Virus record (IMG/VR): IMGVR_UViG_3300036939_000082
Span: 64,001-128,000 of that record
DNA: 64,000 nucleotides
Direction: 5' to 3' (one strand)
From: a virus
Shown: positions 51,257 through 51,864 of the stretch, in pieces
Layout of the letters: every line of letters begins with the position of its first letter
Numbering within the stretch: position 1 is the first letter of the stretch
Notes under the pieces: model-generated
The model's input: the letters and a program-made list of their open reading frames with translations, nothing else
Told to the model about the DNA's origin: nothing
The model's database searches: none
Program-made: the position numbers and the translations under genes

Positions 51257-51538
51257 ATGCCAGAAGATAATACTGAATTTTCGCGAAAGCTTGAAGAGTT
51301 ATTTTCCTACCACCCGCCTAAAAACGAAGCTGAACAACAGCTTCATGCGGTAATTAATGAAGCTTCGATCGCCTACGCAAAAGCGTTAGCTGGCGTTATA
51401 AAAAATCCCGCAGAATTGACAACTGTTTTGCGGAAAGTCCAAGAAGCTAGAAATTTAGCCAACTTCGCTGTATCTTGCGAACGTGTGGGGATTTCTTACC
51501 GCGATTTGTTTTCGCCAACCACATCGAACCCACAATAA
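51257..51538 (+). CDS. Acb2/Vs.4-like helical-hairpin protein (candidate anti-CBASS sponge)
   Basis: FSYHPP...Q, then LRKVQEARNLANFAV, like T4 Vs.4 KTKLKEASMWACRAV. Confidence 0.6.
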   Translation: MPEDNTEFSRKLEELFSYHPPKNEAEQQLHAVINEASIAYAKALAGVIKNPAELTTVLRKVQEARNLANFAVSCERVGISYRDLFSPTTSNPQ

Positions 51539-51546
51539 GTATCGAA

Positions 51547-51864
51547 ATGTCTGATTTTCCAGTAGAAAAACAAGTTTTAACACATCATGTTGAGAATCCC
51601 TGCTCAGTTAACCGTGAATATCTGGAAAAACTGTTAAATGATTCAGTCAAAGAAGTACATATCTTTCACGGAAAACAAATGGTAGTTTCTTACTATTTGC
51701 CGTGTGGTTTTACTGTTACAGGGGAATCAAATATCATCGACCCTGAAAAATTCAACTTTGATATTGGCGAAAAACTGTGCTACGAAGTTGCAATTAAACA
51801 GCTTTGGCAATTGGAGACTTATCGAATGCAGTGCAATATGTATTCTGAGGCTGGCGTAGAATAG
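51547..51864 (+). CDS. Phage N4 gp49/Sf6 gp66-family protein (Acb4-like candidate sponge)
   Basis: LPCGFTVTGESNIIDPEKFNFDIGEKLCYEVAIKQLWQLETY matches L.NGF.V.G.SA..DP.NFD..IG..IA...A..KIW.LEGY. Confidence 0.75.
   Translation: MSDFPVEKQVLTHHVENPCSVNREYLEKLLNDSVKEVHIFHGKQMVVSYYLPCGFTVTGESNIIDPEKFNFDIGEKLCYEVAIKQLWQLETYRMQCNMYSEAGVE

What the first reader, a model, noticed from the sequence alone, without database searches (positions are those of the whole stretch)
51257..51864. Tandem Acb2-like + Acb4-like genes: candidate double nucleotide-signal sponge cassette in a cyanophage
Seen: two adjacent small genes, 8 nt apart, ending in a shared terminator. The first has FSYHPP...LRKVQEARNLANFAV, a helical-hairpin pattern like Acb2/T4 Vs.4. 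The second closely matches the N4 gp49/Sf6 gp66 family, which I recall includes the cGAMP sponge Acb4. Established: such sponges neutralise CBASS/Thoeris second messengers. Inference: a two-gene anti-defence operon covering complementary signals. Residue changes (EARNLAN for EA.MWA; ESNII for SACV) may mean new ligand specificity.
Basis: partly seen in the sequence, partly recalled or inferred. Interest (0 to 1): 0.8.

Follow-up and report, generated by a model that had tools for sequence, protein, structure and literature searches.

The report
Acb2-like plus Acb4-like sponge gene pair
A large phage from a soil-crust (probably cyanobacterial) community carries two tiny neighbouring genes from two known families of "sponge" proteins that phages use to soak up bacterial immune alarm molecules. 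This is a sound but fairly ordinary annotation; the first gene lacks one key ligand-binding residue.

Summary
ORF1 (51257-51538, 93 aa) and ORF2 (51547-51864, 105 aa) lie 8 nt apart on the + strand. They sit behind a conserved extended -10 box and in front of an 18-bp hairpin, and both are under purifying selection (dN/dS 0.13-0.21).

ORF2 is a clear member of Pfam PF13876, the published Acb4 sponge family. It scores 46.9 bits against a cut-off of 27. Its family profile hits only the SPO1 Acb4 structure in the PDB, and its model matches that structure first.

ORF1 is a divergent member of the Acb2/Tad1 hairpin superfamily (PF24729). This rests on its relatives, a profile search, hhalign to T4 Vs.4 and viral fold hits; its own sequence does not hit the Pfam model. 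It keeps the base-stacking Tyr. The phosphate-binding Lys of Acb2 is Asn in its whole clade.

The pairing is not general. Most ORF1 relatives stand alone. In a related 188-kb phage, ORF2 is exactly absent between ORF1 and the hairpin. The tandem recurs in two short contigs, and a fourth phage keeps a different Acb4-like gene 1.3 kb away.

Double-sponge fusions (Acb4-Tad2, Acb4-Sequestin) are already published, and this scan has noted adjacent sponge genes before (e1-142131). Ligands and oligomers are untested. I rate it a new member of a known kind, of moderate-low interest.

The parts
51159..51167 (+). Candidate promoter: extended -10 box TGATATAAT, about 90 nt upstream of ORF1
   Evidence: Read from the sequence. 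It is identical in the homologous loci L013 and L002 although the flanks diverge. The generic -35/-10 scan did not call it because the best -35-like hexamer (TTGATT) lies only 15 nt away. Promoter function is inferred.
51168..51256 (+). Conserved 5' leader with an AGGAAG Shine-Dalgarno-like motif before the ORF1 ATG
   Evidence: Aligns with L013 and L002. The predicted consensus structure is weak (-7 kcal/mol, one compensatory pair), so no regulatory structure is claimed.
51257..51538 (+). ORF1, 93 aa: divergent Acb2/Tad1-hairpin family protein with Acb2-type architecture (helical hairpin plus a conserved C-terminal tail GISYRDLF)
   Evidence: Y18 aligns with PaMx33/JBD67 Y11 and T4 Y8. N34 aligns with K26/K23. 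A52 and R59 align with R67 and T74.
51539..51546 (+). 8-nt spacer with no evident Shine-Dalgarno motif; co-transcription and possibly coupled translation are inferred
   Evidence: read from the sequence.
51547..51864 (+). ORF2, 105 aa: Acb4-family (PF13876) protein
51530..51878 (+). Presence/absence segment (ORF2 with its short flanks) compared with the related 188-kb phage contig L002
   Evidence: blastn: window 50916-51529 matches L002 3667-4274, and window 51879-52020 matches L002 4310-4449. So 349 nt in the window stand where L002 has 35 nt.
51874..51918 (.). Perfect 18-bp hairpin between the convergent genes; probable bidirectional terminator
   Evidence: -39.2 kcal/mol, z -7.3. In L002 the same hairpin directly follows the ORF1 homologue. 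Terminator function is inferred.

Best explanation
The locus is a small accessory transcription unit of a roughly 189-kb phage. The host is probably a filamentous cyanobacterium of soil crusts. The unit encodes two unrelated immune-signal sponge proteins.

ORF2 is an Acb4-family protein. By analogy with SPO1 Acb4, it should form a homotetramer that buries cyclic dinucleotides of the cGAMP/cUA type at protomer interfaces. This would keep CBASS effectors from being activated.

ORF1 is a divergent Acb2-type helical hairpin. By analogy with Acb2, it should form a homohexamer with pockets at protomer interfaces. It keeps the base-stacking Tyr but has Asn where Acb2 has its phosphate-binding Lys, and it lacks the Arg of the trinucleotide pocket. 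Its ligand is therefore open: a cyclic dinucleotide bound differently, 3'cADPR as in some Acb2 homologues, or something else.

ORF1 is the resident gene of this slot. ORF2 was gained (or lost in relatives) as a single-gene add-on between ORF1 and its terminator, so both are probably made from one early or accessory transcript.

What is shown: the gene structure, family membership, fold, purifying selection and the indel. What is inferred: oligomer states, ligands, anti-defence activity, co-transcription and the host.
For: ORF2:
- PF13876 at 46.9 bits against a cut-off of 27.
- PF13876 is the Acb4 family, and all 8 homologues tested in that study bound 3'3'-cGAMP (Chang et al., bioRxiv 10.1101/2024.12.30.630793).
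- A profile of 59 relatives hits only PDB 9e4w (SPO1 Acb4), E 3.8e-8.
- hhalign probability is 96%, E 3.2e-9.
- The AF2 model has pLDDT 93. Its top 13 PDB matches are all 9e4w chains, well separated from the next hit.
- Of the SPO1 contact residues, K36, F48, F62, N63 and I66 are kept and V56 is conservatively replaced.

ORF1:
- 25 of 30 relatives (54-82% identical) hit PF24729, and two exceed the cut-off (29.9 and 29.2 against 27).
- The family profile reaches many PF24729-annotated proteins at E 1e-12 to 1e-6.
- hhalign to T4 Vs.4 gives E 4.5e-4 over 62 columns.
- MAFFT with JBD67 and T4 Acb2 gives the same register.
- The AF2 model is a two-helix hairpin, pLDDT 86.
- In BFVD the top 8 hits, and 13 of the top 18, are Acb2/Tad1 hairpin proteins.
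- In a published screen, 65 of 84 tested members of the Acb2, Tad1 and Tad2 families inhibited at least one signalling defence (10.1101/2025.08.24.671296).

The unit:
- 8-nt spacing, a conserved extended -10 box and one hairpin.
- The tandem recurs in L013 and L014, and a different Acb4-like gene lies 1.3 kb from the Acb2-like gene in L017.
- dN/dS is 0.13-0.21.
Against: - ORF1's own sequence does not hit PF24729 at any reported threshold.
- PDB fold searches for ORF1 do not discriminate. Vs.4 scores Z 6.7, tied with generic hairpins.
- The Lys essential for cGAMP binding in PaMx33 Acb2 (K26A abolishes binding) is Asn in all 30 clade members.
- The trinucleotide-pocket residues R67 and T74 are A52 and R59 in ORF1.
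- In ORF2, four of ten SPO1 ligand contacts differ (E49T, Y57I, T70L, K81Q).
- Most ORF1 homologues have no Acb4 neighbour, so the two genes need not act together.
- No oligomer prediction, binding data or expression data could be obtained.
Confidence: 0.6

Rival explanations
1. Only ORF2 is a sponge. ORF1 has the Acb2/Tad1 hairpin fold but has lost nucleotide binding and does something else, for example binding a host or phage protein as a small helical inhibitor or adaptor.
For: The key Lys (PaMx33 K26, T4 K23) is Asn in the whole clade. The trinucleotide-pocket Arg is absent. ORF1's own sequence falls below Pfam detection. About a quarter of tested sponge-family homologues showed no activity in the published screen. 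Two-helix hairpins are a common scaffold.
Against: The stacking Tyr and the FSYHPP entry motif are nearly invariant. The clade adds an invariant C-terminal Y81, R82 (29 of 30) and F85, which could supply the missing positive charge; in PaMx33 the C-terminal P90 also lines the pocket. Acb2 homologues are known to re-tool the pocket for 3'cADPR with other residues. ORF1 also repeatedly neighbours Acb4-like genes.
Confidence: 0.2
2. Both are sponges but the pairing has no functional meaning. ORF2 is an independent single-gene moron that landed in a gene-flux hot spot. Its ligand range may simply overlap that of ORF1 rather than complement it.
For: ORF2 is a clean indel relative to L002. The same few kilobases differ by two further gene-sized indels: the Ant-like gene against L002 and the 247-aa gene against L013. 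ORF1 homologues mostly stand alone. No Acb2-Acb4 fusion was found among 150 Acb4 representatives.
Against: Acb4-like genes lie within 1.5 kb of the Acb2-like gene in 4 of about 14 distinct loci, and two different Acb4 lineages are involved (45% identity). Only about 1% of phage records hold any PF13876 match (540 of 50,697). Published sponge fusions show selection for combining sponges.
Confidence: 0.3
3. The ORFs are chance open frames or non-coding sequence.
For: None beyond their small size.
Against: There are 47 or more ORF1 homologues and 804 ORF2 homologues at E <= 1e-3. dN/dS is 0.13-0.21. The fold predictions are confident.
Confidence: 0.01

Closest known systems
Acb4 (anti-CBASS 4) of Bacillus phage SPO1, PDB 9e4w; Pfam PF13876 Phage_gp49_66
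   Same: ORF2 passes the Pfam cut-off and has the same fold: N-terminal helices, three antiparallel strands and a long C-terminal helix. SPO1 Acb4 is the best and only significant PDB match by profile and by fold. Contact residues K36, F48, F62, N63 and I66 and the invariant Gly are kept.
   Different: ORF2 is only about 20% identical to SPO1 Acb4. The guanine-reading E49 is Thr, and the phosphate contacts Y57, T70 and K81 are Ile, Leu and Gln. These states are common across the family rather than special to this phage. ORF2 has about 20 extra N-terminal residues. The host is probably a cyanobacterium, a phylum not named in the published survey. Tetramer formation and ligand are untested.
Acb2 (anti-CBASS 2): PaMx33 gp26 (PDB 8H2J), JBD67 Acb2, T4 Vs.4 (PDB 7UQ2); Pfam PF24729 Acb2_Tad1_hairpin
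   Same: ORF1 has a similar size and a two-helix hairpin. The N-terminal aromatic Tyr is in register (Y18 with Y11 and Y8). The second-helix motif Q-E-x-R-x-L-A-N corresponds to the canonical E-A-x-M-W-A-N. Relatives pass the Pfam cut-off.
   Different: ORF1's own sequence is below Pfam detection. The Lys that salt-bridges the dinucleotide phosphate is Asn. R67 and T74 of the cA3 pocket are Ala and Arg. The clade has its own conserved C-terminal tail (G-I-S-Y-R-D-L-F). Hexamer formation and ligand are untested.
Acb2_43, a Thoeris-inhibiting Acb2 homologue that binds 3'cADPR (PDB 9ptq)
   Same: It is a precedent that Acb2-fold proteins re-tool the pocket for a non-CBASS signal using terminal extensions. 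It appears among the weak PDB profile hits, aligned in register on the second helix (E 0.49, not significant).
   Different: Acb2_43 uses N- and C-terminal beta-strands and K19/K55. The ORF1 model shows no strands. No specific similarity in pocket residues was shown.
Published double-sponge fusions: Acb4-Tad2 of Pasteurella phage Pm86 and Acb4-Sequestin (PF21825) of Pseudomonas phage YH6 (bioRxiv 10.1101/2025.07.12.664507)
   Same: The logic is the same: two sponge modules expressed together. The Pm86 fusion blocks both Thoeris and CBASS. Pm86 is also a tblastn hit of ORF2 (38.6% identity).
   Different: Here there are two separate genes, not a fusion. The partner is an Acb2-type hairpin rather than Tad2 or Sequestin. 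No Tad2 or PF21825 match exists in this phage record.

Membership tests
Acb4 / PF13876 (ORF2) | Sequence match to the family model above the curated cut-off | tested here: met
   46.9 bits against a cut-off of 27, E 4.2e-12, HMM positions 27-80 of 82. The same result came from the six-frame search of the record.
Acb4 / PF13876 (ORF2) | Acb4 fold: three antiparallel strands flanked by N-terminal helices and a long C-terminal helix | tested here: met
   The AF2 model has pLDDT 93. The Foldseek top 13 PDB hits are all 9e4w chains, probability 1.00, TM 0.58-0.73; the next hit has E 0.07.
Acb4 / PF13876 (ORF2) | Ligand-contact residues of SPO1 Acb4 (K36, F48, E49, V56, Y57, F62, N63, I66, T70, K81) | tested here: inconclusive
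   Five are identical (K43, F55, F69, N70, I73), one is conservative (I63) and four are changed (T56, I64, L77, Q88). The changed states are the family majority, and divergent homologues still bound cGAMP in the paper.
Acb4 / PF13876 (ORF2) | Homotetramer that binds 3'3'-cGAMP or related cyclic dinucleotides | not testable with these tools
This needs SEC-MALS and EMSA/ITC.
Acb2/Tad1 hairpin superfamily, PF24729 (ORF1) | Own sequence matches the Pfam model above the cut-off | tested here: not met
   No PF24729 hit for ORF1 at E <= 1 in hmmscan, and none at E <= 10 in the six-frame search.
Acb2/Tad1 hairpin superfamily, PF24729 (ORF1) | Homology to the hairpin domain shown through relatives and profiles | tested here: met
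   25 of 30 relatives hit PF24729, and two at 64-66% identity to ORF1 exceed the cut-off. The ORF1-family profile retrieves PF24729-annotated proteins at E 1e-12 to 1e-6. hhalign to T4 Vs.4 gives E 4.5e-4 but only 33% probability. The BFVD top 8 hits are Acb2/Tad1 hairpin proteins.
Acb2 (functional anti-CBASS sponge) (ORF1) | Two long antiparallel helices in a protein of about 70-110 aa | tested here: met
   The AF2 model has helices 24-47 and 51-77 plus an N-terminal helix 5-15, pLDDT 86.
Acb2 (functional anti-CBASS sponge) (ORF1) | Base-stacking Tyr (PaMx33 Y11, T4 Y8) | tested here: met
   Y18 aligns with it in both hhalign and MAFFT. Tyr is present in 29 of 30 clade members.
Acb2 (functional anti-CBASS sponge) (ORF1) | Phosphate-binding Lys (PaMx33 K26, T4 K23), essential for cGAMP binding | tested here: not met
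   The aligned residue is N34, Asn in 30 of 30 clade members and Arg in more distant PF24729 relatives. ORF1 is therefore filed as a superfamily member, not as a proven Acb2 equivalent.
Acb2 (functional anti-CBASS sponge) (ORF1) | Cyclic-trinucleotide pocket (PaMx33 R67, T74); not universal in the family | tested here: not met
   The aligned residues are A52 and R59. T4 Acb2 also lacks the Arg and does not bind cA3.
Acb2 (functional anti-CBASS sponge) (ORF1) | Homohexamer with ligand pockets at protomer interfaces | not testable with these tools
Tad1 (ORF1) | Hairpin domain plus an additional C-terminal domain (about 140 aa in total) | tested here: not met
   ORF1 is 93 aa and all-helical, with only a 16-residue tail after the hairpin.

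The most novel reading that the evidence does not exclude
The ORF1 clade is known only from metagenomic, phage-like contigs. It has Asn in place of the Acb2 Lys and an invariant C-terminal Y-R-x-x-F tail. It could be an Acb2-fold sponge re-tooled for an immune signal that known Acb2 proteins do not cover. The repeated recruitment of Acb4-like genes next to it could reflect selection for complementary coverage of two signalling defences in filamentous cyanobacteria. A side prediction follows: cyanobacteria use both c-di-AMP and c-di-GMP for housekeeping, so this Acb4 should avoid both. That would test the published rule that sponges spare the host's homeostatic signals.
Probability: 0.15. Interest if true: 0.6.

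Novelty: new member of a known kind. Interest (0 to 1): 0.35.

Why it matters
The finding extends two recently described sponge families into a large phage of soil-crust cyanobacteria, a host group for which counter-defence genes are hardly characterised. It gives a natural example of sponge genes stacked as separate genes rather than fusions. The presence/absence boundary is clean and shows that the Acb4 gene moves as a single-gene add-on.

The Lys-to-Asn change in a well-conserved Acb2-like clade is a concrete handle for studying how the Acb2 pocket changes ligand. None of this overturns current understanding. The value is as a well-defined candidate for binding assays.

Tried and rejected
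- Direct phmmer of ORF1 and ORF2 against PDB sequences gave no meaningful hits.
- The profile of close ORF1 relatives against the PDB gave no Acb2 hit. The broader profile put Acb2_43 (E 0.49) and Vs.4 (E 1.1) among chance-level hits only.
- Foldseek and VIA-align of the ORF1 model against the PDB did not discriminate. Vs.4 ranked 34 by Foldseek, and Z 6.7 was tied with many helical hairpins.
- hhalign of the close-relative profile against the single T4 sequence failed, with probability below 1%.
- NCBIfam gave nothing for either protein.
- A search for Acb2-Acb4 fusions among the 150 best Acb4 representatives found none. Longer Acb4-domain proteins showed no second Pfam domain.
- The small genes that follow ORF1 homologues in other contigs have no Pfam family.
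- No ORF1-clade homologue was found in 185,579 species-representative genomes.
- No Tad2 (PF11195) or Sequestin (PF21825) match exists in this phage record. The PF21825 search rang nowhere, including the controls, so that negative is weak.
- megablast of the locus against cultured phages found no match.
- Sequencing runs: no RNA holder is listed.
- The supplementary tables of the Acb2 diversity paper do not contain ORF1 motifs in the text that is held.
- The 5' leader shows no convincing conserved structure.
- The giant proteins hit by ORF2 with many stretches (P0053, P0105) carry no PF13876 in Pfam and are probably composition artefacts.
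Full report
**1. Anatomy**

The region holds two co-directional genes on the + strand. ORF1 runs from ATG 51257 to TAA 51538 (93 aa). ORF2 runs from ATG 51547 to TAG 51864 (105 aa). The gap between them is 8 nt.

ORF1 is preceded by a 126-nt divergent intergenic region. This contains a perfect extended -10 box, TGATATAAT, at 51159-51167, and an AGGAAG motif before the ATG. The box and the roughly 90-nt leader are conserved in two homologous loci, L013 and L002. The leader itself shows no convincing conserved fold.

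Nine nt after the ORF2 stop comes a perfect 18-bp hairpin at 51874-51918. Its free energy is -39.2 kcal/mol and z is -7.3. It is shared with the convergent Ant-like gene at 51944-52516. The strict terminator scan missed it because the loop is 9 nt and there is no U-run on the + strand.

Both ORFs evolve under purifying selection. dN/dS against homologous loci is 0.13-0.21 for ORF1 and 0.20-0.21 for ORF2.

**2. Context**

The window carries portal, baseplate-spike and tail genes. It is bases 64001-128000 of a 188,942-bp IMG/VR virus record, classed as 'provirus' with CheckV completeness 98%. Independent assemblies give contigs of 181-195 kb for close relatives, which fits a large phage genome.

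Three indirect lines point to a cyanobacterial host:
- The cyanobacterial palindrome GCGATCGC occurs 34 times against 1.1 expected.
- The best cultured-phage matches of ORF2 are Leptolyngbya/Plectonema phages, at 48-52% identity.
- The one run that holds the whole stretch is a biocrust metagenome, which may be the source sample.

The host is therefore inferred, not shown.

The locus lies in an accessory region between the spike gene and a thymidylate-synthase-like gene. Most genes there have no known family.

**3. ORF2 is an Acb4-family protein**

- Pfam PF13876 (Phage_gp49_66) scores 46.9 bits against a cut-off of 27.
- Chang et al. (bioRxiv 10.1101/2024.12.30.630793) state that SPO1 Acb4 belongs to PF13876. 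They also report that all eight homologues they purified bound 3'3'-cGAMP.
- An exhaustive phmmer search finds 804 relatives at E <= 1e-3.
- A profile of 59 of these hits exactly one PDB sequence, 9e4w (SPO1 Acb4), at E 3.8e-8. hhalign gives 96% probability.
- The AF2 model has pLDDT 93. It matches 9e4w chains at ranks 1-13 with probability 1.00 and TM 0.58-0.73. The next entry is about 100-fold weaker.

I mapped the ten SPO1 contact residues described in the paper through the hhalign register:

| SPO1 Acb4 | ORF2 | Status |
|---|---|---|
| K36 | K43 | kept |
| F48 | F55 | kept |
| F62 | F69 | kept |
| N63 | N70 | kept |
| I66 | I73 | kept |
| V56 | I63 | conservative |
| E49 | T56 | changed |
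| Y57 | I64 | changed |
| T70 | L77 | changed |
| K81 | Q88 | changed |

Across the 59 relatives, the changed positions are mostly Thr, Val/Ile, Ile/Val/Leu and Glu/Gln. SPO1 is thus the unusual one here, not this phage.

**4. ORF1 is a divergent Acb2/Tad1-hairpin protein**

ORF1's own sequence does not hit PF24729. The case rests on other evidence:
- It has 47 close relatives (E 1e-20 to 1e-44).
- 25 of 30 aligned relatives hit PF24729. Two of these, 64-66% identical to ORF1, exceed the cut-off at 29.9 and 29.2 bits against 27.
- A profile of the clade retrieves many PF24729-annotated proteins at E 1e-12 to 1e-6. These form a continuum to canonical 70-aa proteins with the F-S-Y-H-P-P and E-A-M-M-W-A-N motifs.
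- hhalign of the broadened profile to T4 Vs.4 gives E 4.5e-4 over 62 columns, with only 33% probability. T4 Vs.4 itself scores 71.5 bits on PF24729.
- The AF2 model (pLDDT 86) is a two-helix hairpin with an N-terminal helix.
- PDB fold searches cannot tell it from other hairpins. In the viral library, however, the top eight hits, and 13 of the top 18, are Acb2/Tad1 hairpin proteins.
- ORF1 is too short and too helical to be a Tad1.

**5. Pocket residues of ORF1**

The mutagenesis primers and text of Cao et al. (PMC10312549), together with the JBD67 and T4 sequences fetched here, fix the register. hhalign and MAFFT both agree on it.

| PaMx33/JBD67 Acb2 | T4 Vs.4 | ORF1 | Role in Acb2 |
|---|---|---|---|
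| Y11 | Y8 | Y18 | base stacking |
| K26 | K23 | N34 | phosphate binding |
| R67 | D61 | A52 | trinucleotide pocket |
| T74 | T68 | R59 | trinucleotide pocket |

Y18 is Tyr in 29 of 30 clade members. N34 is Asn in all 30 and is Arg in the more distant canonical relatives. K26A abolishes cGAMP binding in PaMx33 Acb2, so ORF1 cannot be called a functional Acb2 equivalent.

The clade also has a C-terminal tail with Y81 and F85 invariant and R82 present in 29 of 30. In PaMx33 the C-terminal P90 lines the pocket, and in Acb2_43 the terminal extensions rebuild it for 3'cADPR. That the ORF1 tail could supply the missing charge is my inference only.

**6. Is it a cassette?**

Mostly not. ORF1 homologues in other long contigs stand alone, often as a lone + strand gene among - strand genes.

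Compared with the syntenic 188-kb relative L002 (about 80% nt identity), window 51530-51878 is replaced by 35 nt. That segment is ORF2 with a few flanking bases. In L002 the same hairpin directly follows the ORF1 homologue. ORF2 is therefore a single-gene presence/absence polymorphism placed between ORF1 and its terminator.

The same few kilobases hold two more gene-sized indels: the Ant-like gene against L002, and the 247-aa gene 50387-51130 against L013.

The association does recur. L013 and L014 carry the same tandem. A 77-kb IMG/VR contig, L017, has a different Acb4-like gene (45% identical) 1.3 kb upstream of its Acb2-like gene, in divergent orientation.

That makes 4 of about 14 distinct loci, involving at least two Acb4 lineages. 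For comparison, about 1% of phage records hold any PF13876 match. The sample is small and three of the four loci are closely related, so this is suggestive only. No Acb2-Acb4 fusion was found.

**7. Relation to what is known**

Combining sponges is published. Acb4 is frequently fused to Tad2 and to Sequestin (PF21825), and the Pm86 Acb4-Tad2 fusion blocks both CBASS and Thoeris (10.1101/2025.07.12.664507). Acb2-family proteins are known to vary in ligand, including 3'cADPR (10.1101/2025.08.24.671296). Earlier notes of this scan describe adjacent Tad2-like and gp49-like genes in a P22-like phage (e1-142131, not re-tested here).

The present locus is a new member of this kind. It is an Acb2-type plus Acb4-type pair encoded as separate genes, in a probable cyanophage. 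This phage record has no Tad2 or PF21825 match.

**8. Verdict**

My probabilities are:

| Claim | Probability |
|---|---|
| ORF2 is an Acb4-family member | about 0.95 |
| ORF2 is a working cyclic-dinucleotide sponge | about 0.75 |
| ORF1 is an Acb2/Tad1-hairpin homologue | about 0.85 |
| ORF1 is a working nucleotide sponge | about 0.6 |
| ORF1's ligand is a canonical CBASS dinucleotide | about 0.35 |
| Both work as sponges from one transcript | about 0.6 of the joint claim as stated |

Interest is moderate-low. The useful hooks are the Lys-to-Asn clade and the clean single-gene add-on. A third is the test of whether a cyanophage Acb4 avoids both c-di-AMP and c-di-GMP.

Noticed in passing
window 50387-51130 (-), 51944-52516 (-), 51530-51878: The few kilobases around the pair are a gene-flux hot spot. 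Relative to L002, the window has ORF2 and most of an Ant-like antirepressor gene (52021-52643) as extra DNA. Relative to L013, it has the 247-aa gene 50387-51130 (phrog_11947, two stretches) as extra DNA.
   Followed up: partly
L017:363-647 (-) and L017:1989-2258 (+): A 77-kb IMG/VR contig carries a different Acb4-like gene (45% identical to ORF2) 1.3 kb upstream of its Acb2-like gene, in divergent orientation. Two unknown genes (153 and 232 aa) lie between them.
   Followed up: partly
window 37826-39001 (-): An IS605 OrfB/TnpB-type gene (OrfB_IS605, Cas12f1-like TNB and HTH_OrfB_IS605 domains, E 1e-32) sits inside the phage genome.
   Followed up: no
whole window: The cyanobacterial HIP1 palindrome GCGATCGC occurs 34 times against 1.1 expected from shuffles. 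The only full DNA holder among public runs is a biocrust metagenome.
   Followed up: partly
window 53900-55420 (-): A 506-aa protein combines a thymidylate-synthase domain with a C-terminal PterinBD-DUF4346 domain and about 270 N-terminal residues that have no Pfam match. It is conserved in the related phage L002.
   Followed up: no
window 48787-49341 (-): An Rv2179c-like 3'-5' exoribonuclease (phrog_2259 'RNase H', E 1e-52) lies 2 kb upstream of the sponge pair and is conserved in L002. Whether it acts on nucleic acids or on signalling nucleotides was not examined.
   Followed up: no
proteins P0053 (4271 aa), P0105 (2497 aa), P0120 (6211 aa): Giant proteins matched ORF2 in many short stretches by phmmer. 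A Pfam scan of P0053 and P0105 shows no PF13876 and only fragmentary hits to other families, so the matches are probably composition or repeat artefacts. P0120 was not scanned.
   Followed up: partly
MT457475.1 35812-36024 (Arthronema virus TR020): A cultured cyanophage has a weak ORF1-family match (E 8e-4 to relative P0034), annotated as 'putative protein disulfide-isomerase'. This may be a mis-annotated Acb2-like gene.
   Followed up: no
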